64,000 nt of DNA, taken from NCBI GenBank assembly GCA_947588685.1, contig CANPYM010000001.1, positions 479-64,478 of the forward strand. Reading direction: 5' to 3'. The stretch is from an uncultured Bacilli bacterium. GTDB lineage: Bacteria; Bacillota_I; Bacilli_A; RF39; UBA660. This document shows, one piece after another, positions 47,659-63,778 of this stretch; positions within the stretch are counted from its first letter, which is position 1; every line of letters begins with the position of its first letter. Position numbers and translations under genes: made by a program. The notes under the pieces were generated by a model, which saw nothing but the letters and a program-made list of their open reading frames with translations, was not told the DNA's origin and did not search any database.

Positions 47659-49404
47659 CTATTTTTCATCATCCCACTCACCGACATCTTCAAACAAATC
47701 TATTTCCGGGAATATATTGTTGCCATTATGATCTATCAATTGAACTGTTCCTTTATCTTTATCTTTCAAAATATACGCTGGAACTAATTCATCATTAATA
47801 CATAGCATTCCAATAAAATTAGCATATCCATCAGTTAAAGCCATCATATATTGTGATCTCGTTTCACTACCTGACAAGCTATCACTCTTTAAAGCTAAAT
47901 CAGTAACTACAAACTCAACTGTAATTTCACTATCTTCTGGCAATTCTATATCTAATTTTCCATCAAAAACAAATGAATTTCCTTCTGTAGAACACGAAAC
48001 ATTTTTATAATCGCTATATTCACCACCATTTAACTTATAATGGTATTTCATACTTAATACATTGTTTTTAATGCCAAAATTGTCATTCCAAAAGGATCCA
48101 CTACATTTTAAATTAACCTCTTTAGATGTTGCTTCTGTTCTTTCTACAATTACAGTAGTTATAACAGGTACTTTATAACTCAAATATTTATAATCACTAT
48201 CGTCGTTAATTGACAATTTTTTAGTTTGAACTTCTGTACATGCCCCTCTTGTATCCCTCAAAAGAAATCCAAAATTGACTATATCCTCATTTATAGAATT
48301 ATATAATTTGTTATCAGCCTTTTCAATTAATCGTACATTATTAAGTTCATATAGATATTCATAAACTTGTGCATCATCAAATAAATTAACATTATAAAAA
48401 GAAGCCTTTATTTGGGAGACATTTCTTATAAAAACATCAGCAGAACCAGTTAATTCTTTTGATAGATTATCAGCTACTTCTAATTTTGAATCAAAAGTTA
48501 TAGATGATTTTGTCCTAGAACAATACCAATCATAAGTTTTAGAATCAGTACCTAAAAGTGTACCGTTCGCATCATAAGTAGATAACTTATAAGTTATTGG
48601 TATTTTACCTTGAATATCTTTTGAAATGTCATAAAACTCAATTTCTTTGGATAACATCTCTTCAAGAGTTAATGGAAAGTCTAAATTAACATATTCACTT
48701 ATACTAGGTTTCGTTTTATCAAAAACAACATTAATTCCTTTGTTAATAGAAAAATTATCAGCTATTATTCCACTTAATAATTTTCCAGATTTATCAGAAA
48801 AAGAATACTCTAATTTATGTTTAAAGGTCGTTGTTGCACACGTTATTTCTAAAGTTTCATACGATGGATAAGCATTGTTAGATATATTGACTAAATTTCC
48901 ACTATTAATCACACTAGCTCGAGGAATCTTAGTTAAAGCCGTATTAGAGGTTTGAACAGTAGCTGACTCCGGAACATATGAGGCACTTGTATTTTTGGTC
49001 CACATTACCTTTGCATAGCCACTTAAAGTTCCGTCATCTTTATGGATTACAGTAACTTCTTTAGTTAAAGAAGAAGATGCCCCAGTATTTAAGCTTTTAA
49101 CTGTCTTTGTTCCTAAAAGTTTGTCGCTATTGGTATTATCATCATGCCAATAGATTTTTAGCGTTGGAGCATACGTTGAATAAGACCCTGTTCCGGATTT
49201 TATCGTTCCTGTTACACTAATTGTAGATGTATTATTTGGAATTGATGTACTCTTTTCATTAAAAGAAACTGATAAATTGAAAGTTCCCAAACCTCTAATG
49301 GTTTTGCTTGCTGAATTAGATGCAGCCATTAAAACATAACCATCTATTTTAGATAATCTCTCAGCATTGATAAAACTTGTTTTTATATTATTCAAGAGTA
49401 TCAT
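47659..49404 (-). CDS. tail fibre/receptor-binding structural protein (581 aa)
   Basis: Beta-rich and S/T/N-rich, in the position of distal tail genes. The N-terminal third resembles DUF859-type phage structural proteins (HxDDG-like loop: IHKDDGTLSG). The start may be the TTG at 49395 (GGAGGA 9 nt upstream). Confidence 0.65.
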   Translation of the reverse strand: MILLNNIKTSFINAERLSKIDGYVLMAASNSASKTIRGLGTFNLSVSFNEKSTSIPNNTSTISVTGTIKSGTGSYSTYAPTLKIYWHDDNTNSDKLLGTKTVKSLNTGASSSLTKEVTVIHKDDGTLSGYAKVMWTKNTSASYVPESATVQTSNTALTKIPRASVINSGNLVNISNNAYPSYETLEITCATTTFKHKLEYSFSDKSGKLLSGIIADNFSINKGINVVFDKTKPSISEYVNLDFPLTLEEMLSKEIEFYDISKDIQGKIPITYKLSTYDANGTLLGTDSKTYDWYCSRTKSSITFDSKLEVADNLSKELTGSADVFIRNVSQIKASFYNVNLFDDAQVYEYLYELNNVRLIEKADNKLYNSINEDIVNFGFLLRDTRGACTEVQTKKLSINDDSDYKYLSYKVPVITTVIVERTEATSKEVNLKCSGSFWNDNFGIKNNVLSMKYHYKLNGGEYSDYKNVSCSTEGNSFVFDGKLDIELPEDSEITVEFVVTDLALKSDSLSGSETRSQYMMALTDGYANFIGMLCINDELVPAYILKDKDKGTVQLIDHNGNNIFPEIDLFEDVGEWDDEK

Positions 49405-50440
49405 CCTCCAAATCTTCTAGTTTTTGAATTAACTGTTTTAAATTAAAGAAGCCAACACCATCTTTTTCCCCTTCAAAATGTTTTGATGTCATTTTTATTG
49501 GTTTCATTTTTAAACTTTGAAGCTGAATACTTTCTACAGCAATTAATTTATCAACACCTGTTCCATTATGATTAAAGATTGATTGAAGCTTCTGTCTATT
49601 GTAGATTTTGACTCCTCGATTATTCATTCTTAAACTAACCAAATCGGTAGAATCAACAATTGTGAACTCCCGGGTACCAAAGGTATATGTCATATTTCGG
49701 ACGCTTTCAATTGTAGATTGTTGCAATTCGTCTATTCTTTTGATTGTTTCTTCAAAATTAAGTTTAAATTGATCAACACCTTCAACAATTGATAAAACTT
49801 GACCTTTTAAAACTTCTAATTGATCACCAACCTTTTGGGCTAAAGAATCATCTGTATAACTTAAAGCATCGATAAAATCTCCGTCTTCATATTCTTCATC
49901 AACTGTTTTTGATATTTGACATGCATACAATAGTCCGTCATTAATCCACAAATCACCATTGTCATATGGTGGATATGGTTCTTCTAAAAAAACACGTCTC
50001 TTATTATCAGCTGCATCTTTAGCAGCATTAGCAGTTGATAAAGCATCCTTTAAGTCTTTATCTTTTATTTCCAGCCATTCATAAATATTATTTTCTTTAT
50101 TAAAAGTAAAGGTATAACAATATCCTGTTTCCCGATCATAAAAGAGATCTCCAATATGAGATCTCTTTTCTTCATCGGTATTCCAATTAACCGAAGGTTC
50201 AGTTGTTAAACTTGGCTTATAATTATAATACCAAATATCAACCTTTTCATTTATATCTGCTTCAAACTCTTTTAAAGTACTTAAAGTTGATTTTATAAAA
50301 TTATTTAAATCAGCTTTAGTATCATTGATAGCTGCAACATTTCCTTTTATTTCATTAAGAAGTTTTTCTAATTTGTATTTTCGTTCCAGGTCTTGAGCCG
50401 TTCTGACTCCAGGTATATCTTGTCGTTGCAATTTTACCAC
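49388..50440 (-). CDS. tail fibre/structural protein (350 aa)
   Basis: N-terminal coiled coil, then repeated W...GDL(F/W) motifs (HIGDLFYD, NGDLWIND) common in phage fibre shafts. The likely start is the TTG at 50431 (GAGGTGG 6 nt upstream). Confidence 0.65.
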   Translation of the reverse strand: MVKLQRQDIPGVRTAQDLERKYKLEKLLNEIKGNVAAINDTKADLNNFIKSTLSTLKEFEADINEKVDIWYYNYKPSLTTEPSVNWNTDEEKRSHIGDLFYDRETGYCYTFTFNKENNIYEWLEIKDKDLKDALSTANAAKDAADNKRRVFLEEPYPPYDNGDLWINDGLLYACQISKTVDEEYEDGDFIDALSYTDDSLAQKVGDQLEVLKGQVLSIVEGVDQFKLNFEETIKRIDELQQSTIESVRNMTYTFGTREFTIVDSTDLVSLRMNNRGVKIYNRQKLQSIFNHNGTGVDKLIAVESIQLQSLKMKPIKMTSKHFEGEKDGVGFFNLKQLIQKLEDLEDDTLE

Positions 50441-53400
50441 CTCACAGTTCCATTAGAGCTAACTTTCATACCTAATTCTTCAAGAATAGTTTTGATATCA
50501 TCATATGGCAAATTTTTATTATTTAAATAATTAACTATTTCAGAATTATATGTGTCATCGCTTGGATATTCCATCTTATAAAGCATTATTTTTTGTTCAT
50601 AAGTTAAATCCAAACCATTTATATAATTAATTATTTTATTTTTTCTAGATCCATTAATGGTTTTGCCATTCGCATATTTATCAGATTTGATATTATTTAA
50701 GTTGTTAGTATATTCTCTATATAAAACAGTATCTTCGGTAACCAATTTAGACATTTGGTATTGCTTTTGGTTATTATATGCCCAATCATAAGCACTTTTA
50801 CTATCCTCGGAAGAAGAATAATCTTTATAAGAAATATTATTCTTCGTTAAAAAATCATATTTTTCTGTATTTTTATTATAAAAATCAAATTCTTCATAAT
50901 TAGCAAATTGTTCATAATTATCTAATTCAATTCGATCACTAACTTTTTTCATGGTTTTTAATTTTGATGCATCAACCACATTATATTTTGAATCATAAAG
51001 AATCTTTCTGTTTTCATCATAATAATATGTTTTATTGACTTGCTTACCTTTTGAGTTAAGCTCTTTATTAATATATTTTGTATATCCATATTGATCCGTA
51101 TTGTTTTTAGATGTAACATTATTAAACATAATTTCTTTTTTATCTGTAGGAAGATTCAAACTTGTTATATAATCAAAAGCTTGCTCTAAAGAATTAGCCT
51201 TTTTTAAATAATTAATTGGAATATTAATTTCGTTATAATTGTTATCATAAACAATTGAATTAGATTTGTCATACCAATAAACATTTCCATCAAAATCAGT
51301 ATATTTTTCATAATTATTCTCATCTTTAGTAGCTTTAGCTTTCTTTAACTCATCCTGATAATCCCAATACTCTTGAATTGGTAAACCTAGTTCTTTATAT
51401 TCAGCTGTTTGTTTATCGTTTAGTGGAGCACGACCTTGATCAAAATAATCTCTAGCATTGCTACTTGCATACTGACCAAATAGAGCTGCTTGAACACGGT
51501 TTTGAGGAATATCTTCCACTGGGAACCTTAATTTTCCACCATCAGTGTAAGATCCTTTTACTGGAAGATCTTCATCAAACATTCCTAATCCTTTTTTTAT
51601 TTTGTTAAGCTGATTGTATCCGGATGGCATTATATAATATGGCAAAGCTTCTTTTAAAATATCTAAACGACTCTCTTCATTTCCGTATTGATCTTTGCCT
51701 TGGACCAACTCTACTATTGGAAGCGCCTCGCTAATAGGTATACGGCCACCACCAGTTAAGATACTTGCAAAAGGCAGTTGATCAATTAAATCACCCATAG
51801 CTTCTTCAGCACGTTCTGTCATACTTTTATCCTTGTCATCATCATCTGGCCAAAAAATCTTTTTTAACATTTCAATTGGATTAAACATTACAGATGATCC
51901 AGTCAATTTTTTAAAAAATTCATCAAAGAAAAATGAAGCAGCTACTAATTGACCTAATTGGAATATGACAGATTTAGCTGTTCTATTTCCACTTTGAATA
52001 TCCATTTTATAATCATGGATTAAAGCTTGCCATTGATTATTTACCTCTAATTGAAATTGAGAAAAAACACCTAAAGTTTTGGAATTAAAGATAGCAGCTG
52101 TTGCACCTTTAGTTCTATCACCCATAATCCTTGAGGCAAAGTCATCTGCTTGTTTTATTGCAACATCTTCGGATAAATTATCACCTAATAATTCATAATA
52201 TTTGCTTCGCCAGATCACATTTGATGTAAAAGTATCGGTAGCTGTCATGAAACATTGACCTGCACTTGATATCTTTTGCCATGTCTTTTTTGATATAGTA
52301 TCGCTTCCGGCTCTTGATGTTAAAAAGACTGATTTATCAGCCAAATTATCTTGATGAACAATGTTTTTTAATTCTGATATTGTTCCTTGAATAACAGCTA
52401 ACTTCTTAACCTTTGGCATCGCTTGAACTACAGAAACAAAGTTTGTTAAAGCACTTCTAACATTAAAACCAACCATATTGCTTCCAACTTGAGATTTTAT
52501 AGCGTTAAGACAATTGTAAACTCTTCGTCCAGCAGCTTCTTCAAGACCACGATCAATCTTACCTTTTTTGCCAGCAAGAGCATTAGCTTGTTCATCTAAC
52601 CATGCTGCATATCTACTTAATTTATGATTTTTCATATCCTGGATTCGCTGTTCTTGTTCATAATCATTTAGCTGATATGCATTATCCATTCCATGCTGTT
52701 CGCCGAATGTGTCACGGACTAATTTAGCTAAAGTCCTATATCTTTGAATATCTTCTGTATGGAAAATTAAATTAGATGAACTTTGAATATATCCATCGAT
52801 TCCGGTTATTGCGTCATAAGTTGTATTAATTCCTTTTCTGGCAACAGCACTTGCAAAAAAACTTTTTCCAGGTTTAAATTGATCTGTTATTCCATTTATA
52901 TCAGTAGGTAACAAATCATCGTTTAAGTTTTGTCTACTAAAAGGAACACCAAAGCGGCTAAATATATCATTTAATTCGTTAAAGTGTCTCATATAGTCTT
53001 TTCTTTTAGGAATAGCATCATATCCCATATCAACTAAAACTTCATTAATGTCATCTATATATGTGTCATATTTAGATCTTATAACTCTTGCTGCATTCTT
53101 AATTTTATCTTGAGTTTTTATATCTGGAAATTCTCGAGCTAATTCTTTATCACCATAATTTATATATTCGCCAAAGTCATTGACATACTTCTTTTCACCA
53201 TACTTTTGGACAGCAGCCGATTCTTTACTTCTAGCTTTAATACCTAAATCCATAATCTCGGCACGTTCTCTATTTTGCCATCTAATTGATTCAGCCTCAT
53301 TATATTTTGTCCTATTAATAGTAGCGTCATTTATCTTTTGACCAATCTCATAGCCAAAGACTTTTTCATTTAATCTAATTGGATCTGTTATAAATGAATT

Positions 53401-56400
53401 AACTGCTGAAATATCGTCGCCTTTTGAAATATCTTCCACAGTTAATCCCATCTTTTCCAATAATTCTTCTCTAATGACTTCCCTTGTTCTTTTTTCGGCC
53501 TTTTGATCTAATTCGTTTTGAAGTTTTCTAATTTCTACTTCATTTAACGAATTTTTTTGAATAAGATTAAAAACTTTATCTCGTGCTTGCCTTAATTCAT
53601 AATTTGATAATCTAAACTTATGTGTAACAGTATCATTACTATTCATAAAGTCACCTAATGCATATAATTGATCTACTTCATTAATAATATTTTTATTAAA
53701 TAAATAAGGATATTCTTCGCTCAATTCCTGCCACAATGAATCTATTGATAAACCTTCATTACCTAGCTTTAATTTACCAAAATTAGACTTTCTAAACTCA
53801 TTATAATCAGTTATTTGATTTTTTAAATTGTCATCAACTTTAATTTTAGAAGCCTTTATTTCTTTTTTAATTGCCAATGTTTGAGAATCAACAAAGTCAA
53901 TCTCTCGATTGGCATATTTATCTACAATTTTCTCGATTTCTCGGTATGTATCTACATTTACTAATTGTTCGGCCGTCTTACCCATAAAGCGTCTCAAATC
54001 GTCTCTAAATGACTTTTTTTCAGCATTAGAAAAGCCAACATATTCGTTGGCAGCTTTAGTGGCAGCATTTATACCTTTATAAGTTCCTTGAGCAATTGCC
54101 CTTTTAATCTTTTCTTCTACCTTTTTGCGACGCTTTTCTAATGGCGAATAATAATTTGTATATTTTTCATTATTATTCTCATTAGAATTAGATTTATTAT
54201 TATCTTTTGCTACGTATTCTAGTAATTCCTCTATTTCAGTATTTCCTTCTTGAACTTTGACATCATCGCCAAAAACATTAAAATTACCTACGGGTGCAAT
54301 ATCATCATTGTTATTTGATAAAGAATAATTAATATTTTCATCTGATGAAAGATCTATATTTTCTTCTAATATTGGTAAGATATTATCTTTCCAATTAGCA
54401 TAATCTTTATCGCTGAAGATATGATTATATGACTCATTGTATGTCATATCAAAATCGTCAACATATCCATTATCATGATTGGCTATTCTAAACTCAGTAT
54501 TACCTTCAGCATCTTTGATATAAATACTAGGAACATATCCAGCCTCTTTACTTTTGCTAATTTCATAATTGATATTATGTTTATCTAAATAATTTAACAG
54601 TTCATTATATCCCTTTACAGCTAATTCTTGCCGATCAAAAAAGGTTTTATCTTGACCTTCATCATATCTTGGAGATATTCCTTCCTTTTCTAATATTTCA
54701 TTTATTTGACTATATACATCATCATAAACTTGTTGATTATGAGTCTCCACTTCTTCTTCAGTCATATTTATTTCATCTAAATCAACATCGGATAAATCAA
54801 TATAATTTTCTTCTGAATATGGTGAATATGCAATAATGTCATCTATTTCTTGATAAGTTATTTGATCAACATCCATATCTCTAATTAAACGATTAGTTTC
54901 AATTTCAATATAGTCTTTTTGTTTTTTGCTATTTAAATCTTCATATCTTTTTGTTTCTGAACCAAAATTTGATAAAGAAAGAGATGTATTATCTACATCT
55001 CTTGACAGATTTTTCTTACTTGATTGAATAAAGCTTTTTTCTGAAATGTTTTTGGATTGATAGTCTTCAAGTATTGAATCAATGTATTCTGTCCACGATT
55101 GTTCCCCTTCAACTGAAGCATTATTCCAATTATCGAATTCATATCTAAATTCAGTTCTTTCAATATTCGTATTAATGTTCGTTCTAAAGGCGTCAACATT
55201 TTTTCCCTCCTCAATTATATTTTTTATAAAGTCCTCGTTCCCTAATATTGGGATTTTAGATAAAATTTGATAATTATTATCAGCTGTTTTTAAAACCTCA
55301 TAGTAATTATTGTAATCATTTAAAAACAAATTTTCATCTACACCAATTTTAGCTTTACTTATCATCTGATTAAATAAGACAGAGGATTTATACTCATCTA
55401 AATTTCTATCTTTATTATACTCTATACCAGTGGTATTTACAACTTTAGCATATTGTCCTTGTGTTGGATCTATCCATGCTACATCATTAATTGATACTTC
55501 TTTTGAGTAAACTTTACCATTCCCTGCGTAACTTTCTGCCTCCATTCTAGATGGTGAAACAAATATACCTTGTTCTATTGGGTAAGATGAATATACTATT
55601 ATTAATCCATTTTCAATGGCTTTCTCTATATCTTTCTTTGTTAAATCAGGATCATAAGCGTCATAATCAGCCCAATCGTCATCTTCAATAGTTTCTTGAA
55701 GTGTTTTTATATCTTCAATATTCCTAATCCAAGTAACTGTTTCATTTCCTGCTGGATTATTTTTTAATATGATGTCAAGCTGTTTTTCCTTTAAAGTATT
55801 AGAAGGAAAAGAACTATCATCTAATTTTTGATTGTTTAGTGAATACTTTATATTATCTTGCATATTACTATTATTGGATAATGTACTAGATTTGACATTA
55901 TTGTTAGATTGTGATATATTATCTTCTACAGAGGAACCATGGGTTGATTCGTCAACCATAATAGATAAGCTATTTTTATCTATCGTGGCTCCTCTTTTTT
56001 CGTTAATATTATCAATATCATACGCATAATTACCATCTGATTCTTTTCTAACAACCATTCTTCCTTCAAATACGCTATAATCTTCTATCAAACCATTATT
56101 GTTTTTTAATGGGTATGCAAGTAACACATTATAATAGTCGAAACCTTTTCTTCCTCTATGCGTATTTTTATAATTTGATTTTCCAGATTTTAAAGGATCT
56201 ATTTTAGCTAGTTCTAAAATTTCTCCATAATTTCCTGAAATTCTATATTTTAAACGTCTTGATTTGTAATTGTTATAACCATCATACATAAACTTTTTTA
56301 TATCATTGTTTGTAACTTGTAAATAATCATTACTTGACATATTTTTTACTTTTTGTCCTATTAATTTTGTTAAAACTAATTTCACATCTTTTTTTGATGG

Positions 56401-58710
56401 TCTAGAGCCAAGTAAATCATCAGATATAACAACGTCTTCTCCAGATATCAATTTACCTTTTGAAAACTTAAGCTTTTTTTCTTGCTTAGAAATATCACTA
56501 TTTTGATATATATCCCTAAACTTCTTTTGAATCTCTCTTAATTTTTTCTCATCGTCTGTTCCTTTAAACTTAATAACTAAGTCATCTATTAAGTCTTTTA
56601 TTTTTGTAAATAAATTAGGTTTCTTAGATAGACTTTCAATCAATTTTTCGTCGGTAAACATGTAGTCGCCTACTAAATCGGCAGCTAATTCATTTTCTAT
56701 ATTAGTACCATCAATTCCTTTATATAATTCCTTTATTTGATCTAATCTAGAATCATAATCACCTTTTTGCTTTGCATAATCAAATAACATATCGCGAAGA
56801 TCTTTAGATTCTGCTGTATTTTCAAATAAATGATTTGTTTCATGTCCTAATATTACATTTAGGGCTTTTTTTGAATCTGTGTTTATTAAAATTGTCGTTT
56901 TTCCATCTTCATTAGTTCTCACAAAGCCATTTATTTCAGCATTTTCTACATTATGGCCTAATTTTTTTAATTCTTCTGAATTAGTAAAGCCATACTTAAT
57001 ATTTTCTTTGTTTAAATTAGACGCTATATCAACAATTTTTCTTGAATCAGATGTATTATTCATAAACTGTGCGGCCGTTTTTCTTGTAAATTGTTCATTC
57101 TCATCTTTTATTTTAGTCTCATCATATTCATATTTTTTATTTTTTTGGTTAGCCTCATAATAACTTTTTTGAAGAAATTGATCTTTAGATGCTGAATCAT
57201 TTATTAATTTAGCTTGTTGCACCCTTAATTTATCAATTTTAGACTGTATATCGGCTTTCTCTTCTTTGGTAGTAGTATTTTCCATTTGTTCCTGTAAAGT
57301 TTTAATTTGGGCTGTTGATGATGGTGATAGAGCCTGTTCTATGTCTCCAATATCTACCTTTCCAGATTTTATTTGTTCATTTACTTCTTTTTTGATTGAA
57401 CTTAATTCTTTTTTTGATAGATCAGACATATATGCTTCAATATCGCCATTATTAAAGTCATTTTCAACCTGTTTTCGTATTGCTTCTTTTTCGGTTGCAT
57501 TTAATTTTGAGCCTTGGTTATATTCAGCTTTTTCTATCCTATCGTCAACTATTGATTCAATAGTTTTTTTGTTCATTAATTCTTTTCTTCTTTTTTCGGT
57601 TAATGATTCCATTACTTTTCTTTCATTTTCAGAAAAACCATCAACATAATCAACATTAGCTTTTGTGGATTTTACTAATGAAGGAGCTGATGAAATACCT
57701 GAAGCAATAGCGCCATCAATAAATTGATCTAAAAGTTTTTCATCATTTAAAATGTCTCTTAAATCTTTATCCGACATGTAAGTCAATTTTTTGCCAAGTC
57801 CTTGACAAAATCCTGATACAACTTCCTCTAATCCTTCGCCACTAGCTTTGATGGCATATTCCGAGAAATTCTTCATTAAACGGCTTTTAAATCTATTGCT
57901 AACAGCACTAGCTATTTGATCATCAAAACCACCAATACCTTTAGAAAGTCCTAATGCATTTGTTCCTTTTCCTAAACCACCAAACATCATTTCAGAGCCA
58001 GCTTCAGCAAGACCACTTATTATCCCATATTTTAATGCTTCGCCATTTGTAGCACCATTCTCATAAGCTTCAGTCATTCCATTTCCCATCGCTGTGGAAA
58101 AGGTTGTTCCTGTTATGGTAGCATCTACCACTTTATCAGATCCTACTTTAGCTTTAGTAACTCCGCCTATTGCTTGTAATCCATATATATATCCTAAAGT
58201 TTGGATTAATCCATCTGATCGGTCGGTTGTTACAGACCACTCTTCAAAAGCATCAGGAGTTTTCCAAATCTTTTCAGCTTGATTCTCCATTGCACTTTCT
58301 CTTAAATCATTAGGATCTATATAATCTTTAAAAAGGCCAGTTTTTTCAAGAAGATTAGCTTGACCATATGCAATCATATCTCCGAAGCTTTCACCAATAC
58401 CCCAAATACCTTTAGTAAATTCAGTAGCAGCTTTTCCAGCTGTTCCTATAATTGTTTTAGGAATATCTGTCCAATCAAATCCATCTTCAAAGGCTCCTTT
58501 ATCAATAAAACTGCCAAGAAAATCGAAAGTTTCACCTAATGGATTAGTCAAAAACTTTTCCCAACCAGATTTTTTTTCTTGATTTTGATTAGCTTGTTGT
58601 TCTGCAAGTTGAGCTATTTGGTCTTGTAGCTGTTGCTGTTGTTCTTGTTGTAATTGTTCCTCGGTTTTTTTCTCTTCCCATTTCCTTGTTTTTGGATTGT
58701 ATTTATACAT
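50434..58710 (-). CDS. giant virion/ejection protein (2758 aa), polyvalent-protein-like, with zincin HExxH module
   Basis: Single uninterrupted ORF with an AAGGTGA SD. Q-rich N-terminal coiled coil, then a Gly/Ala-rich hydrophobic region. HETNH at residues 623-627 (56830-56844) with a downstream ELAADL. A nuclease/LPD-like block at about residues 760-900 (GFDYYNV...YAYDIDNINEKR). The C-terminal half has hydrophobic helices and YYYD/YWYD repeats. Confidence 0.8.
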   Translation of the reverse strand: MYKYNPKTRKWEEKKTEEQLQQEQQQQLQDQIAQLAEQQANQNQEKKSGWEKFLTNPLGETFDFLGSFIDKGAFEDGFDWTDIPKTIIGTAGKAATEFTKGIWGIGESFGDMIAYGQANLLEKTGLFKDYIDPNDLRESAMENQAEKIWKTPDAFEEWSVTTDRSDGLIQTLGYIYGLQAIGGVTKAKVGSDKVVDATITGTTFSTAMGNGMTEAYENGATNGEALKYGIISGLAEAGSEMMFGGLGKGTNALGLSKGIGGFDDQIASAVSNRFKSRLMKNFSEYAIKASGEGLEEVVSGFCQGLGKKLTYMSDKDLRDILNDEKLLDQFIDGAIASGISSAPSLVKSTKANVDYVDGFSENERKVMESLTEKRRKELMNKKTIESIVDDRIEKAEYNQGSKLNATEKEAIRKQVENDFNNGDIEAYMSDLSKKELSSIKKEVNEQIKSGKVDIGDIEQALSPSSTAQIKTLQEQMENTTTKEEKADIQSKIDKLRVQQAKLINDSASKDQFLQKSYYEANQKNKKYEYDETKIKDENEQFTRKTAAQFMNNTSDSRKIVDIASNLNKENIKYGFTNSEELKKLGHNVENAEINGFVRTNEDGKTTILINTDSKKALNVILGHETNHLFENTAESKDLRDMLFDYAKQKGDYDSRLDQIKELYKGIDGTNIENELAADLVGDYMFTDEKLIESLSKKPNLFTKIKDLIDDLVIKFKGTDDEKKLREIQKKFRDIYQNSDISKQEKKLKFSKGKLISGEDVVISDDLLGSRPSKKDVKLVLTKLIGQKVKNMSSNDYLQVTNNDIKKFMYDGYNNYKSRRLKYRISGNYGEILELAKIDPLKSGKSNYKNTHRGRKGFDYYNVLLAYPLKNNNGLIEDYSVFEGRMVVRKESDGNYAYDIDNINEKRGATIDKNSLSIMVDESTHGSSVEDNISQSNNNVKSSTLSNNSNMQDNIKYSLNNQKLDDSSFPSNTLKEKQLDIILKNNPAGNETVTWIRNIEDIKTLQETIEDDDWADYDAYDPDLTKKDIEKAIENGLIIVYSSYPIEQGIFVSPSRMEAESYAGNGKVYSKEVSINDVAWIDPTQGQYAKVVNTTGIEYNKDRNLDEYKSSVLFNQMISKAKIGVDENLFLNDYNNYYEVLKTADNNYQILSKIPILGNEDFIKNIIEEGKNVDAFRTNINTNIERTEFRYEFDNWNNASVEGEQSWTEYIDSILEDYQSKNISEKSFIQSSKKNLSRDVDNTSLSLSNFGSETKRYEDLNSKKQKDYIEIETNRLIRDMDVDQITYQEIDDIIAYSPYSEENYIDLSDVDLDEINMTEEEVETHNQQVYDDVYSQINEILEKEGISPRYDEGQDKTFFDRQELAVKGYNELLNYLDKHNINYEISKSKEAGYVPSIYIKDAEGNTEFRIANHDNGYVDDFDMTYNESYNHIFSDKDYANWKDNILPILEENIDLSSDENINYSLSNNNDDIAPVGNFNVFGDDVKVQEGNTEIEELLEYVAKDNNKSNSNENNNEKYTNYYSPLEKRRKKVEEKIKRAIAQGTYKGINAATKAANEYVGFSNAEKKSFRDDLRRFMGKTAEQLVNVDTYREIEKIVDKYANREIDFVDSQTLAIKKEIKASKIKVDDNLKNQITDYNEFRKSNFGKLKLGNEGLSIDSLWQELSEEYPYLFNKNIINEVDQLYALGDFMNSNDTVTHKFRLSNYELRQARDKVFNLIQKNSLNEVEIRKLQNELDQKAEKRTREVIREELLEKMGLTVEDISKGDDISAVNSFITDPIRLNEKVFGYEIGQKINDATINRTKYNEAESIRWQNRERAEIMDLGIKARSKESAAVQKYGEKKYVNDFGEYINYGDKELAREFPDIKTQDKIKNAARVIRSKYDTYIDDINEVLVDMGYDAIPKRKDYMRHFNELNDIFSRFGVPFSRQNLNDDLLPTDINGITDQFKPGKSFFASAVARKGINTTYDAITGIDGYIQSSSNLIFHTEDIQRYRTLAKLVRDTFGEQHGMDNAYQLNDYEQEQRIQDMKNHKLSRYAAWLDEQANALAGKKGKIDRGLEEAAGRRVYNCLNAIKSQVGSNMVGFNVRSALTNFVSVVQAMPKVKKLAVIQGTISELKNIVHQDNLADKSVFLTSRAGSDTISKKTWQKISSAGQCFMTATDTFTSNVIWRSKYYELLGDNLSEDVAIKQADDFASRIMGDRTKGATAAIFNSKTLGVFSQFQLEVNNQWQALIHDYKMDIQSGNRTAKSVIFQLGQLVAASFFFDEFFKKLTGSSVMFNPIEMLKKIFWPDDDDKDKSMTERAEEAMGDLIDQLPFASILTGGGRIPISEALPIVELVQGKDQYGNEESRLDILKEALPYYIMPSGYNQLNKIKKGLGMFDEDLPVKGSYTDGGKLRFPVEDIPQNRVQAALFGQYASSNARDYFDQGRAPLNDKQTAEYKELGLPIQEYWDYQDELKKAKATKDENNYEKYTDFDGNVYWYDKSNSIVYDNNYNEINIPINYLKKANSLEQAFDYITSLNLPTDKKEIMFNNVTSKNNTDQYGYTKYINKELNSKGKQVNKTYYYDENRKILYDSKYNVVDASKLKTMKKVSDRIELDNYEQFANYEEFDFYNKNTEKYDFLTKNNISYKDYSSSEDSKSAYDWAYNNQKQYQMSKLVTEDTVLYREYTNNLNNIKSDKYANGKTINGSRKNKIINYINGLDLTYEQKIMLYKMEYPSDDTYNSEIVNYLNNKNLPYDDIKTILEELGMKVSSNGTVRW

Positions 58711-62209: not shown

Positions 62210-62521
62210 CTACTTATCTAAATCTTTAATATAATTTAAATCTTCTATAGCTTCACCTATTGTCACAAATCTTTCTACAGGAACAACATAGCCTCGTTCT
62301 TTATCTTCAAATAGAATAATCATATTCGGTTTTAAATGAATAACCGTTTTAATTTCTTGATCATATTTTTCATTAAATGTTTTTGTGATTTGAGTAAATT
62401 CTAGGTTTTTTAATTCCTGGATTAAATTACCATCTTCTGTTTCATATTTCAAAGTTGTATCTTCATCAACTTTAATTCCCTTATAAATTGTAACATCTGG
62501 ATTTTTAATATAATTTTTCAT
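62210..62521 (-). CDS. small structural-module protein (103 aa)
   Basis: ATG at 62521 lies 4 nt after a GAGGTGA SD. The longer ORF-track start at 62578 has no SD. The initiation region is a 29-nt exact copy of the one at 47641-47669. Confidence 0.6.
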   Translation of the reverse strand: MKNYIKNPDVTIYKGIKVDEDTTLKYETEDGNLIQELKNLEFTQITKTFNEKYDQEIKTVIHLKPNMIILFEDKERGYVVPVERFVTIGEAIEDLNYIKDLDK

Positions 62522-62598
62522 TATTTCACCTCTATTTTTCATGGTTATAGGAGTTGCACCTATTTTATACTCTACCATGATAAAAAGGGATTAAAGTC

Positions 62599-63778
62599 CT
62601 ATTCTGATGGACTTAATGTAATCCCTGTTAAATCTAACACTTTAGATTTTTCACCATTCTTAAGCGTTATTTTTTGCGTATTTGAATGTAATTGAACTAC
62701 TAGAATACCATCTTCATCTAAAGTACCACTACCTTTAGTTTTAGCCTCTGATAATTCCCAATTGATTGTTTCACCTTTAGTAGCTTCATCGCATTTGATT
62801 GCTAAAAAGTTACCTTTAGCATTCTTGCTGAATTTGGGGAAACTTTCAACATATTTTGATGTACCAGTTATCTTGGTATCTTGAAGTTCAACCTCTTGAA
62901 TTGTACTGATGTCAATTCCTAAAACTTCGCCCTCGGGTAAGTTTATTGTTACCGTCTTTTGGGCTGGTTTAGGGAGTTGGATTGGTGACTTTTAATACTT
63001 GGATTCTTTTTTCATCAACGATTTTTGCACCGAACGTGTCTAATCCACGGATAATATCTTTGAACTTTTTAGGATCTCTTAATGCTTCAACTTCATTAAT
63101 CTGACCAGCAAAGGCGATAGCTTTTTTACCTCTTATATCGCAATATGTATAAGAGCCATCATTTTTCATATTATTACTCATAATAACATCAAAGTCATCA
63201 TAAACACCAACTTTACCTTTTTTAATATAATTTGGATTATCAGTGCTTAAAGTAATTAAAGCTTTCTTAAACTTATTATAGATTTTTGGAGTAATTTCAA
63301 TAACGCCTTCTTCGTCAAAATCTCTTTGACGAAGTTCAACAATACCATCATCAACACCATTAATAATAGCATCTTCGGTAATTTCAGCAATTTCAGTGAC
63401 ATTTGTAGCTTGAGAAATTAAATCTGCTACATATGAATCTCTAGCTACAGCTAGACCATGAACAGCTTTTTCACGATATTTTTCCATTAATCCTGGCATT
63501 GATTGTGCCTTATCGACATCATCAACATAAAAAGCAAAATAATTTGCTTGATCAATCGTTAATAAAACCTTTTTATCATCCATTTCTTGGATTTCAATAT
63601 CTGCCCCGGTATATTTATTAATTGTAGGTTCACCAACACCTAAAATACGAACCGTGCGTGCATAGTTGCATTCACCTTCATATTCACGATTGCAATTATC
63701 AACCAGTTTAGTTTTCTTTTCGAGATCGTCTTGGATATGCTTTGACCAAACTTCTCTAATAAAATTAGTTACAGCCAT
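62599..63778 (-). CDS. major capsid protein, predicted long isoform (269 + 123 aa) made by +1 frameshift at CCC_UAA
   Basis: A 123-codon stop-free stretch (62970-62602) lies in the +1 frame with clear coding character but has no ATG/GTG/TTG until its last about 15 codons. That frame opens only 7 codons before the capsid stop. Confidence 0.6.
62929..62974 (-). other. candidate recoding signal: shifty stop CCC_UAA_A plus downstream nested stem-loop
   Basis: ACU CCC UAA A with overlapping Pro codons CCC/CCU. Six nt downstream: GCCC-aaaagac-GGTAA-caataaac-TTACC-cga-GGGC. Confidence 0.5.
62969..63778 (-). CDS. major capsid protein (short isoform)
   Basis: 269 aa. ATG at 63778 after an AAGGGTGA SD. 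The N-terminal MAVTNFIREVWSK... pattern is common to P22-coat/HK97-fold capsid proteins of Firmicute phages. It follows a scaffold-like gene. Confidence 0.75.
   Translation of the reverse strand: MAVTNFIREVWSKHIQDDLEKKTKLVDNCNREYEGECNYARTVRILGVGEPTINKYTGADIEIQEMDDKKVLLTIDQANYFAFYVDDVDKAQSMPGLMEKYREKAVHGLAVARDSYVADLISQATNVTEIAEITEDAIINGVDDGIVELRQRDFDEEGVIEITPKIYNKFKKALITLSTDNPNYIKKGKVGVYDDFDVIMSNNMKNDGSYTYCDIRGKKAIAFAGQINEVEALRDPKKFKDIIRGLDTFGAKIVDEKRIQVLKVTNPTP

What the first reader, a model, noticed from the sequence alone, without database searches (positions are those of the whole stretch)
62599..62991. Hidden 123-codon ORF overlapping the capsid stop: predicted +1 programmed frameshift at CCC_UAA giving an extended capsid isoform
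The 390-nt gap after the capsid gene is not empty. The +1 frame is open from 62991 to the TAG at 62601-62599 and reads like a beta-rich domain (KPAQKTVTINLPEGEVLGIDISTIQEVELQDTKITGTSKYVESFPKFSKNAKGNFLAIKCDE...). It has no ATG/GTG/TTG until its last about 15 codons and no SD. That frame opens only 7 codons before the capsid stop, and the capsid ends ACU CCC UAA A. This gives overlapping Pro codons (CCC/CCU) next to a slow stop codon, followed 6 nt later by a nested stem-loop (GCCC...GGTAA-loop-TTACC...GGGC). The same logic (overlapping proline codons plus a shifty stop) was reported for the +1 frameshift in the cps gene of Listeria phage PSA. C-terminal Ig-like decorations added by frameshifting are a known phage theme. 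The predicted junction peptide is ...VTNPTP-KPAQKTV...
Basis: partly seen in the sequence, partly recalled or inferred. Interest (0 to 1): 0.7.

Follow-up and report, generated by a model that had tools for sequence, protein, structure and literature searches.

The report
Frameshift-added capsid decoration domain cassette
The "empty" 390 bases after this phage's capsid gene encode a beta-sandwich domain that has no start codon and is most likely added to a fraction of capsid subunits when ribosomes slip +1 at CCC_UAA; the trick is already known from phages SPP1, PSA and lactococcal 936 phages, but here the slip site and the domain move between phages together as one unit.

Summary
On the minus strand the major head gene (63778-62969, phrog_267) ends ACU CCC UAA. 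A 123-codon ORF follows in the +1 frame (62970-62599) and has no ATG/GTG/TTG until 13 codons before its stop.

Comparative evidence strongly supports a programmed +1 frameshift:
- In 45 related loci, 39 copies of the domain (38 unique junctions) sit directly after an invariant A-C-W-CCC-UA(A/G), always in the +1 frame.
- The upstream genes are unrelated. They belong to at least 8 major-head and 3 major-tail PHROG families.
- Coding constraint in the +1 frame starts exactly at the shift site.
- One relative has no start codon anywhere in the frame. Three use a -1 A9 slippery run instead. Others are in-frame fusions to capsid or tail-tube proteins.
- Nucleotide homology to most loci is confined to 62978-62600. 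One phage carries two copies that are 98.7% identical, one on its capsid gene and one on its tail-tube gene.

The mechanism has experimental precedents in SPP1 gp17.1* (CCC_UAA), 936-phage MTP-TpeX (CCC.UAG) and PSA Tsh (CCC_UGA). This is therefore a new member of a known kind. The added point is a portable shift-site-plus-domain cassette. The downstream stem-loop is weak in the window, and its role remains only suggestive.

The parts
62969..63778 (-). Major head (capsid) protein gene, 269 aa, frame 0. Ends ...GTC ACC AAT CCA ACT CCC TAA.
   Evidence: phrog_267 major head protein, E = 4.8e-37. 4103 homologues; identical protein P0227 on a 145,677-bp contig.
62969..62977 (-). Shift site ACU CCC UAA. 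E-site codon ACU, P-site CCC (rare Pro codon) re-pairing +1 on CCU, zero-frame stop UAA in the A site.
   Evidence: A-C-W-C-C-C-T-A-R is invariant or near invariant in 38 unique junctions, while upstream positions carry 0-0.8 bit. CCC is 4.7% of Pro codons against 37% for CCT.
62599..62970 (-). Start-less +1-frame ORF of 123 codons plus TAG. It encodes a short linker (KPAQK) and a roughly 110-aa beta-sandwich domain of family phrog_31690. Predicted fusion junction: ...VTNPTP-KPAQKTV...
   Evidence: pN/pS is 0.42 in the first 22 codons and 0.33 in the rest. AF2 pLDDT 83.7, all-beta. Weak Ig-like/BIG2 fold matches.
62929..62964 (-). Nested stem-loop starting 4 nt after the stop (GCCC/GGGC outer stem, GGUAA/UUACC inner stem). 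Candidate frameshift stimulator.
   Evidence: -8.9 kcal/mol, z = -1.6 in the window. Stronger in relatives (z -2.5 to -3.0). A different hairpin at the same position in another subgroup has z = -4.85. 93.9% of cells paired and one compensatory pair, UA:11/GC:4. Synonymous variation is depressed in the first 16 codons.
62600..62978 (-). Extent of the portable cassette. This is the only stretch with nucleotide homology to most related loci.
   Evidence: blastn: L003 is 97.6% identical over 62978-62609, with no homology on either side. About 35 other loci show the same limits. Within one phage, two copies are 98.7% identical from TACACCCTAG to the ext stop.
62581..62626 (-). Terminator-like hairpin followed by UUUUU, overlapping and directly after the extension's stop codon. 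This places the extension inside the capsid transcription unit.
   Evidence: -15.9 kcal/mol, z = -3.76, 0 of 200 shuffles. The syntenic relatives L004 and L035 have a GC hairpin plus U5 at the same place. The simple terminator scan missed it because its loop limit was exceeded.

Best explanation
This is a programmed +1 ribosomal frameshift at the last sense codon of the major capsid gene.

Proposed mechanism:
1. When the ribosome has the rare proline codon CCC in the P site and the zero-frame stop UAA in the A site, slow termination gives peptidyl-tRNA(Pro) time to re-pair one base downstream, from CCC to CCU.
2. Decoding then continues with AAA CCA GCC... for 123 codons.
3. Most ribosomes terminate and make the 269-aa capsid protein. 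A minority make a 392-aa isoform (...VTNPTP-KPAQKTV...) that carries a short linker and a roughly 110-aa beta-sandwich (broadly Ig-like) domain, which would be displayed on the capsid surface.
4. A hairpin starting 4 nt after the stop may raise the efficiency.

The shift site, hairpin region and domain ORF together form a unit of about 380 nt. This unit has been exchanged among unrelated phages and grafted onto the 3' ends of both capsid and tail-tube genes.

Shown here: the sequence anatomy, conservation of the site, where coding constraint begins, absence of start codons, the alternative -1 and in-frame solutions in relatives, and the cassette limits.

Inferred: that the slip actually occurs, its efficiency, the role of the hairpin, surface display and function (probably weak adhesion to carbohydrate or mucus, by analogy with other phage Ig-like decorations).
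For: - Anatomy.
- 39 copies (38 unique junctions) have CCC-TA(A/G) followed by the domain in the +1 frame. This holds after 15 unrelated clusters of upstream proteins. They are major head proteins of phrog_267, 422, 10, 1328, 544, 247, 909 and 2729, and major tail proteins of phrog_88, 820/3099 and 158.
- Of 397 ORFs of at least 100 aa in the loci, 36 end in CCC, about the number of complete cassette-bearing ORFs; I did not check them individually.
- Coding signature from the first codon after the slip: pN/pS 0.42, third-position variability 0.44 against 0.23 and 0.19.
- Upstream of CCC, the +1 frame has pN/pS 2.26 against 0.055 for the capsid frame. The ATGs chosen there by gene callers are therefore not real starts.
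- L028 has no ATG/GTG/TTG at all in the frame, and about 10 loci have none in the first 40 or more codons.
- Three loci reach the same domain by -1 at TT AAA AAA AAA G, where the -1 frame opens only inside the A run.
- In-frame fusions exist to a capsid (L042; P0216) and to a tail tube protein (P0135).
- The AF2 model places strands at residues upstream of the only candidate internal start.
- The terminator lies after the extension, not after the capsid stop.
- CCC is a rare codon.
- Experimental precedents use the same site: SPP1 CCCUAA (PMC6316719; sequence read), 936-phage CCC.UAG (PMC4759559), Listeria phage tsh CCC_UGA (PMC5009743).
Against: - There is no proteomic, ribosome-profiling or reporter evidence, and the phage is known only from metagenome assemblies.
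- The window's own stem-loop is not more stable than shuffled sequence (z = -1.6).
- Covariation support is a single compensatory pair that could be one evolutionary event.
- In many relatives an in-frame ATG lies 13 nt after an SD-like GAGGG (ATT in the window). Some independent initiation of a free 100-aa domain cannot be excluded for those relatives.
- No SD-like stimulator lies upstream of the site, unlike prfB.
Confidence: 0.88

Rival explanations
1. The ORF is an independent small gene translated from its own non-canonical or internal start, for example ATT 62916-62914 (ATG in many relatives) served by the GAGGG at 62934-62930. It would give a free domain of about 105 aa, perhaps a separate decoration protein.
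For: Gene callers annotate 105-115-aa products from such internal ATGs in many relatives. GAGGG is conserved because it encodes P-E-G.
Against: - The 22 codons upstream of that position are conserved as protein, with pN/pS 0.42, and are modelled as strands of the fold.
- The SD-to-start spacing is 13 nt.
- The window, L003, L006, L014, L028, L029, L035 and L039 have no canonical start there, and L028 has none anywhere.
- This reading cannot explain the invariant CCC-TAR after unrelated genes, the -1 A-run variants or the in-frame fusions.
Confidence: 0.04
2. Termination-reinitiation (translational coupling). Ribosomes terminate at UAA and some restart nearby without a canonical start codon, giving a separate 123-aa protein.
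For: The ORF abuts the stop codon. Coding constraint begins within a codon or two of the stop.
Against: There is no start or near-cognate start at the junction (AAA CCA GCC in the window; AGU GAG CCC and AGU CCA GCC in others). It gives no reason for an invariant rare CCC before the stop. The same domain is reached by a -1 slippery run or by in-frame fusion in other phages.
Confidence: 0.03
3. Not expressed: a decaying remnant of a formerly fused capsid C-terminal domain, or an assembly or sequencing frameshift error.
For: An in-frame fusion relative exists (L042), and its junction lies in a homopolymer A10 run.
Against: The same out-of-frame arrangement occurs in about 40 independent assemblies with diverged sequences. 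The ORF is kept open with pN/pS of about 0.33-0.42. CCC_TAA is not a homopolymer error hotspot. The cassette is 97.6% identical to L003 across the junction.
Confidence: 0.01
4. Transcriptional slippage. RNA polymerase, rather than the ribosome, makes the frame change and produces a subpopulation of mRNAs with the two ORFs fused.
For: This is plausible for the three -1 relatives and for L042, which have A9-A10 runs. Such runs are known slippage sites (PMC5009743).
Against: The window's site has only three Cs, too short for known polymerase slippage. The invariant stop codon right after CCC is explained by ribosomal but not by polymerase slippage.
Confidence: 0.03

Closest known systems
Bacillus phage SPP1 tail tube proteins gp17.1 / gp17.1* (+1 frameshift at CCC_UAA; Auzat et al. 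2008, as summarised in PMC6316719)
   Same: Identical P-site/A-site hexamer CCC UAA at the very end of a major virion protein gene (read directly: GCT CCC TAA T). Rare CCC shifting to frequent CCU. The extension is a beta-sandwich domain of about 90-120 aa added to a minority of subunits. Low-GC Firmicutes host background.
   Different: The SPP1 extension sits on the tail tube, not the capsid, and is an FN3 domain of 87 aa. The window's domain has no Pfam match. The E-site codon is GCU in SPP1 and ACU/ACA here. The SPP1 case is experimentally proven; this one is not.
Lactococcal 936-group phage PhiC0139 MTP-TpeX fusion (+1 frameshift at CCC.UAG; PMC4759559)
   Same: A 'shifty stop' CCC_UAG, the variant found in 23 of the 38 related junctions here. 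The extension ORF is an accessory present in only some members of the phage group.
   Different: It is a tail protein extension of 22.6 kDa with a carbohydrate-binding domain. It is a different domain family.
Listeria phage PSA Cps and Tsh (+1 frameshifts; Zimmer et al. 2003, as summarised in PMC5009743)
   Same: Both the capsid and the tail proteins of one phage receive +1 frameshift extensions, exactly as in related locus L046. The tsh site is CCC_UGA. The cps site is ACA_CCC_UCC, which shares the ACA_CCC E/P-site pair seen in most junctions here.
   Different: The PSA cps site is not followed by a stop and relies on a pseudoknot. Here a stop (UAA or UAG, never UGA) always follows, and only a simple or nested hairpin is predicted.
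C-terminal extensions added by -1 frameshifting (T3 and Lactobacillus phage A2 capsid proteins: Ig-like; T7 gp10B: not Ig-like), and the 'promiscuous Ig-like domain' model of Fraser et al. 2006 (as cited in PMC5009743)
   Same: The outcome is the same: sub-stoichiometric display of an accessory beta-sandwich domain. The same domain is reached by +1, -1 or in-frame decoding in different phages.
   Different: The published model attributes the frameshifts to chance out-of-frame landings of the domain. Here the shift site itself is part of the transferred unit, since homology starts at ACW CCC.
Bacterial prfB (RF2) autoregulatory +1 frameshift CUU_UGA_C
   Same: P-site slippage next to a slowly decoded stop codon.
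   Different: prfB needs an upstream SD-like element and serves regulation. No SD-like element is conserved upstream here, and the purpose is a second structural isoform.

Membership tests
CCC_stop +1 programmed frameshift in phage virion genes (SPP1 gp17.1*, 936 MTP-TpeX, Listeria tsh type) | The downstream ORF is in the +1 frame, overlaps or abuts the end of a major structural gene, and lacks its own initiation signals. | tested here: met
   no ATG/GTG/TTG for 117 codons. L028 has none at all.
CCC_stop +1 programmed frameshift in phage virion genes (SPP1 gp17.1*, 936 MTP-TpeX, Listeria tsh type) | The shift site is CCC immediately followed by a zero-frame stop codon, so that the +1 codon is CCU. 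| tested here: met
   ACT CCC TAA at 62977-62969. Invariant in 38 unique related junctions.
CCC_stop +1 programmed frameshift in phage virion genes (SPP1 gp17.1*, 936 MTP-TpeX, Listeria tsh type) | CCC is a rare codon in the genome and CCU is frequent. | tested here: met
   CCC 27, CCT 210, CCA 285, CCG 49 in 52 long ORFs. CCC is 4.7% of Pro codons.
CCC_stop +1 programmed frameshift in phage virion genes (SPP1 gp17.1*, 936 MTP-TpeX, Listeria tsh type) | Evolutionary conservation of the site and of the trans-frame coding capacity. | tested here: met
CCC_stop +1 programmed frameshift in phage virion genes (SPP1 gp17.1*, 936 MTP-TpeX, Listeria tsh type) | Two protein products with a common N-terminus are present in virions at a fixed ratio. 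| not testable with these tools
   This needs SDS-PAGE or mass spectrometry of virions. The phage is known only from metagenome assemblies.
PSA cps-type +1 frameshift (ACA_CCC_UCC plus 3' pseudoknot) | A 3' RNA pseudoknot acts as stimulator and the A-site codon is a sense codon. | tested here: not met
   The A-site codon is a stop. Only a nested hairpin is predicted. No pseudoknot-specific search was run.
3' RNA structure as frameshift stimulator (general) | A stable, conserved structure a few nucleotides after the shift site, supported by covariation. | tested here: inconclusive
   Window z = -1.6; relatives z -2.5 to -4.85. 93.9% of cells paired, but only one compensatory pair. Reduced synonymous variation.
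prfB-type +1 frameshift | An SD-like sequence about 3 nt upstream of the shift site. | tested here: not met
   Positions -27 to -4 carry no more than 0.84 bit, and no GGAGG-like motif is present.
Pfam Ig-like / FN3 / Big_2 domain families | A sequence match above the gathering threshold. | tested here: not met
   No Pfam family at E < 0.1. Only phrog_31690 'unknown function' matches.
Ig-like beta-sandwich fold (structural class) | A predicted 7-9-strand beta-sandwich that superposes on Ig-like domains. | tested here: inconclusive
   AF2 pLDDT 83.7, all-beta. The PDB matches are mostly Ig, Big, cadherin and S-layer domains, but they are weak (E >= 0.01, TM 0.3-0.45). In BFVD, uncharacterised phage proteins match at TM 0.6-0.7 and BIG2 proteins at about 0.45.

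The most novel reading that the evidence does not exclude
The roughly 380-nt unit is a self-contained, horizontally mobile 'recoding cassette'. It comprises ACW-CCC-UAR, the hairpin region and the beta-sandwich ORF ending at its own stop codon. It can be grafted onto the 3' end of essentially any surface-exposed virion gene and immediately gives sub-stoichiometric display of the domain. In this reading the shift site is carried with the domain rather than evolved after a chance out-of-frame insertion, and it may also serve as the microhomology for recombination.

Evidence in hand:
- Homology limits fall exactly at the site.
- At least 11 unrelated recipient gene families.
- An intragenomic duplicate on both capsid and tail tube.
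- Only 6 of the 120 best capsid homologues end in TP.
Probability: 0.55. Interest if true: 0.62.

Novelty: new member of a known kind. Interest (0 to 1): 0.5.

Why it matters
- **Annotation.** The gene is missed, or mis-annotated with arbitrary internal starts (75-167 aa calls), in every public assembly examined. A rule such as [quoted passage not shown] would recover a second virion protein isoform in many gut-phage genomes.
- **Biology.** The case extends the CCC_stop +1 frameshift, proven in a few cultured Firmicutes phages, to uncultured rabbit-gut phages and to a P22-coat-like/phrog_267 capsid.
- **Evolution.** It indicates that recoding signals can travel together with the domain they express. 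This sharpens the existing model of promiscuous Ig-like domains.
- **Engineering.** The cassette is a natural, compact design for partial-occupancy capsid or tail display, which could be useful in phage engineering.

Tried and rejected
Searches that led nowhere:
- megablast and tblastn of the region against 50,697 GenBank phages gave no match. The family is absent from cultured-phage records at BLAST sensitivity.
- IMG/VR with the single sequence gave no relatives. With the alignment it gave only two distant loci.
- The JGI metagenome scan gave none.
- Pfam on the capsid, the extension and the two downstream ORFs gave nothing significant.
- The simple terminator scan found nothing.

Ideas considered and rejected:
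- A second copy of the domain, or another CCC_TAR/+1 site, elsewhere in the window: none found.
- A phage-encoded tRNA that might affect Pro decoding: no tRNA genes in the window.
- Ribosome hopping from CCC to the downstream CCC in AGCCCA: rejected by my own reading of the sequence, because the landing frame hits a stop after three codons.
- Stop-codon readthrough or reassignment: rejected because the ORF is out of frame.
- The 140-aa "standalone" calls with upstream ATGs: rejected as real starts because the +1 frame upstream of CCC has pN/pS 2.26.
Full report
**1. The observation**

Reading the minus strand and the ORF list confirms the anatomy.

- A 269-aa ORF runs from ATG 63778 to TAA 62971-62969 and ends GTC ACC AAT CCA ACT CCC TAA A.
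- The +1 frame is open from 62991 to TAG 62601-62599. That is seven codons before the capsid stop and 123 codons after the CCC.
- This frame reads KPAQKTVTINLPEGEVLGIDISTIQEVELQDTK... It has no ATG, GTG or TTG until a GTG 13 codons from its end.
- The upstream ORF is a major head protein (phrog_267, E = 4.8e-37).
- The hidden ORF matches phrog_31690, a 107-position family of unknown function (E = 1.4e-10). It has no Pfam match.

There are three small corrections:

- The stem-loop starts 4 nt, not 6, after the stop.
- An SD-like GAGGG does occur inside the ORF.
- The PSA precedent is misattributed (see section 6).

**2. Relatives**

A protein search found 78 homologues, all called as stand-alone proteins of 75-167 aa with wildly different start positions.

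Their alignment shows conservation beginning at (L/H)P(K/S)PA-K-VT and none further upstream. This is the pattern expected if the real N-terminal boundary is a frameshift junction and the gene callers simply took whatever start codon was available.

A scan of GTDB genomes with the alignment returned 43 loci, almost all rabbit-gut MAG contigs. IMG/VR gave two distant ones.

**3. The junctions**

For every locus I located the upstream ORF, its stop and the frame relation.

*The +1 group.* In 39 copies (38 unique sequences) the upstream ORF ends with CCC followed by TAA (15) or TAG (23), never TGA, and the domain is in the +1 frame.

- A position-by-position count shows 0-0.8 bit of information from -27 to -4. 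It then shows A(-3) C(-2) W(-1) C C C T A R essentially invariant.
- The upstream proteins fall into 15 unrelated BLAST clusters.
- They are major head proteins of eight PHROG families (267, 422, 10, 1328, 544, 247, 909, 2729). They are also major tail proteins of three (88, 820/3099, 158).
- Among 397 ORFs of at least 100 aa in these loci, 36 end in CCC. That is about the number of complete cassette-bearing ORFs, though I did not check them one by one.
- In the window, CCC is 4.7% of proline codons, and the capsid gene is the only one of 52 long ORFs that ends with it.

*The -1 group.* Three loci (L018, L021, L036) instead need a -1 shift. They have TT AAA AAA AAA G just before the stop, and the -1 frame opens only inside the A run.

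*In-frame fusions.*
- L042 is an in-frame capsid-domain fusion whose junction is an A10 run.
- The exhaustive representative search found 528 cluster representatives.
- These include in-frame C-terminal fusions to a major tail protein (P0135) and a major head protein (P0216).
- They also include tandem arrays in proteins of over 2000 aa.

*One variant.* L041 has CCC AGC TGA, with the stop one codon later.

**4. Is the start-less part translated?**

- For the 22 codons between the shift site and the first position where any relative has an internal ATG, pN/pS is 0.42. Third-position variability is 0.44, against 0.23 and 0.19 at positions 1 and 2. This is the same pattern as the rest of the domain, where pN/pS is 0.33.
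- Upstream of CCC, the phrog_422 group has a +1 frame that happens to be open for 48 codons and contains the ATG used by gene callers. There the capsid frame has pN/pS 0.055 and the +1 frame 2.26. Coding in the +1 frame therefore begins at the CCC_UAR site.
- L028 has no canonical start codon anywhere in the frame. About ten loci, including the window, have none in the first 40 or more codons.
- The AlphaFold model (pLDDT 83.7, pTM 0.73) is an all-beta sandwich. Its first strands (TVTIN, EV) lie upstream of the only candidate internal start, ATT 62916-14.
- Fold matches are weak but are mostly Ig-like, Big, cadherin and S-layer domains (E >= 0.01, TM 0.3-0.45). In BFVD the matches are uncharacterised gut-phage proteins and then BIG2 proteins.
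- I therefore call the domain a beta-sandwich of broadly Ig-like topology. I do not file it in any Pfam Ig family.

**5. A portable cassette**

- blastn of 5 kb around the site against all loci shows that, for about 36 loci, nucleotide homology to the window is confined to 62978-62600. That is from the base before ACT CCC to the extension's stop.
- L003 is 97.6% identical over exactly that stretch, yet it has an unrelated capsid (phrog_1328) and unrelated downstream DNA.
- Only L004 and L035, and partly L009, are syntenic relatives of the window phage.
- In the siphovirus on L046, both the HK97-type capsid gene and the 192-aa major tail gene are followed by the cassette. Its gene order is TerL, portal, protease, capsid, connectors, tail tube, G/GT, tape measure.
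- The two L046 copies are 98.7% identical over 392 nt. Identity starts at TACACCCTAG and ends at the stop codon.
- Among the 120 closest of 4103 homologues of the window's capsid, only six end in TP. The rest end in other short tails. The cassette is therefore an accessory in this capsid family.
- The DNA downstream of the extension stop is unrelated between loci.
- In the window lineage this DNA forms a terminator-like hairpin plus U-run (-15.9 kcal/mol, z = -3.76). This places the extension within the capsid transcription unit.

**6. The RNA structure**

- The window's nested hairpin (62964-62929) is only -8.9 kcal/mol, z = -1.6.
- Relatives have a stronger version (GCCCUC/GAGGGC, z = -2.5; L037 z = -3.0).
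- A second subgroup has a different hairpin at the same position (GCCACG-N11-CGUGGC, z = -4.85).
- On 15 sequences sharing one register, 93.9% of cells pair, against 24-52% when the partner is slid.
- One pair changes on both sides (UA in 11, GC in 4). Both changes are non-synonymous (S->E and E->T). This may be one evolutionary event.
- Synonymous variation is lower in the first 16 codons than in the rest: 0.235 against 0.403 in one group, and 0.163 against 0.257 in the other.

Together this is suggestive of a functional 3' element but not conclusive.

**7. Mechanism and precedents**

The best explanation is P-site slippage of peptidyl-tRNA(Pro) from the rare CCC to CCU, while the A site holds a slowly decoded stop. 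This yields ...VTNPTP-KPAQKTV....

This is the mechanism documented for several phages:

- SPP1 gp17.1/gp17.1* at CCCUAA, with an 87-aa FN3 extension and a 3:1 ratio (PMC6316719). I read the site GCT CCC TAA T directly.
- Lactococcal phage PhiC0139 MTP-TpeX at CCC.UAG (PMC4759559).
- The tsh genes of Listeria phages PSA, A118 and A500 at CCC_UGA.

PSA cps uses ACA_CCC_UCC plus a pseudoknot (PMC5009743). The same review records that Ig-like extensions are reached by +1, -1 or in-frame decoding in different phages, and attributes this to chance landing of mobile domains.

The present family fits that picture with one refinement: the shift site is inside the transferred unit.

**8. Rivals**

- Independent initiation at an internal or non-canonical start, termination-reinitiation, pseudogene or assembly error, and transcriptional slippage all fail. 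None explains the invariant CCC-stop after unrelated genes together with where coding constraint begins.
- Transcriptional slippage remains plausible only for the A9/A10 relatives.
- Residual doubt comes from the complete lack of protein-level data.

**9. Verdict**

- In kind it is already known, so I rate it a new member of a known kind, with interest about 0.5.
- The interest comes from three things:
  - how clean the comparative proof is;
  - the systematic mis-annotation in public data;
  - the evidence for a portable recoding cassette serving at least eleven capsid and tail-tube families.

Noticed in passing
L046:7511-7902 and L046:9939-10328 (same phage as L012): One siphovirus carries the cassette twice, after its PF05065 capsid gene and after its 192-aa major tail protein gene. 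The copies are 98.7% identical from TACACCCTAG to the stop. This mirrors Listeria phage PSA, where both Cps and Tsh are frameshift-extended.
   Followed up: yes
L018:2470-2500, L021:2470-2500, L036:2470-2500; L042:2470-2500: Three relatives reach the same domain by a -1 shift at TT AAA AAA AAA G, where the -1 frame opens only inside the A9 run. L042 has an A10 run and an in-frame capsid-domain fusion. This could be a real fusion, a homopolymer assembly error or a site of transcriptional slippage.
   Followed up: partly
L041:2500-2520: Variant junction ATT CCC AGC TGA. The CCC is kept but the zero-frame stop lies one codon later, so the A-site codon at the presumed slip is a sense codon (AGC), as in PSA cps.
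   Followed up: no
P0031, P0036, P0066; L027:2504-2986: Some relatives replace the C-terminal ...LSPAE* with a further tail of about 40 aa (AQKSMPVRTVTEIKAQLDKLGIKYDNKATKADLLTLLPQKG). One carries a precomputed PF09124 hit. From memory it looks like a helix-extension-helix/SAP-type motif. L033 and L044 have extension ORFs of about 260 codons with a second domain.
   Followed up: no
P0079 (2272 aa, 9 matched stretches), P0082, P0107, P0112, P0116: The same domain occurs as tandem repeats in proteins of over 2000 aa with no Pfam match (P0079). P0080 has weak cadherin and SprB-repeat hits. The domain is therefore a general surface or adhesin-type repeat, not only a phage decoration.
   Followed up: partly
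window 50434-58710 (-): A 2758-aa ORF lies in the structural module, downstream of the capsid, with no PHROG match at E <= 1e-5. The neighbouring ORFs 49388-50440 and 47659-49404 match tail proteins, and 59921-61621 matches a virion structural protein (phrog_3287).
   Followed up: partly
window 62519-62578 (-): The next gene is listed from ATG 62578. It more likely starts at ATG 62521-62519 (MKNYIKNP...), which has an SD GAGGTG 5 nt upstream and aligns with the MKN starts in L004 and L035. The stretch 62522-62598 then holds the terminator-like hairpin.
   Followed up: partly
whole window: 49 of 52 ORFs of at least 120 aa are on the minus strand. GC is 31.7% and there are no tRNA genes. Stop usage is TAA 27, TAG 20, TGA 5. 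The capsid protein is identical to P0227, found on a 145,677-bp contig, so the window is part of a larger phage or prophage-bearing contig.
   Followed up: no
L046:16418-19693: A reverse transcriptase gene (PF00078 RVT_1) lies just downstream of a tail-fibre-region gene with DUF6273. P0084 combines the beta-sandwich domain with DUF6273. This may be a diversity-generating retroelement targeting a tail protein.
   Followed up: no
P0001-P0078: Public gene calls for this ORF family use inconsistent starts, giving products of 75-167 aa. The 128-140-aa calls begin inside the capsid coding sequence and the 100-115-aa calls at internal Met codons. This is a systematic annotation artefact caused by the missing start codon.
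   Followed up: yes
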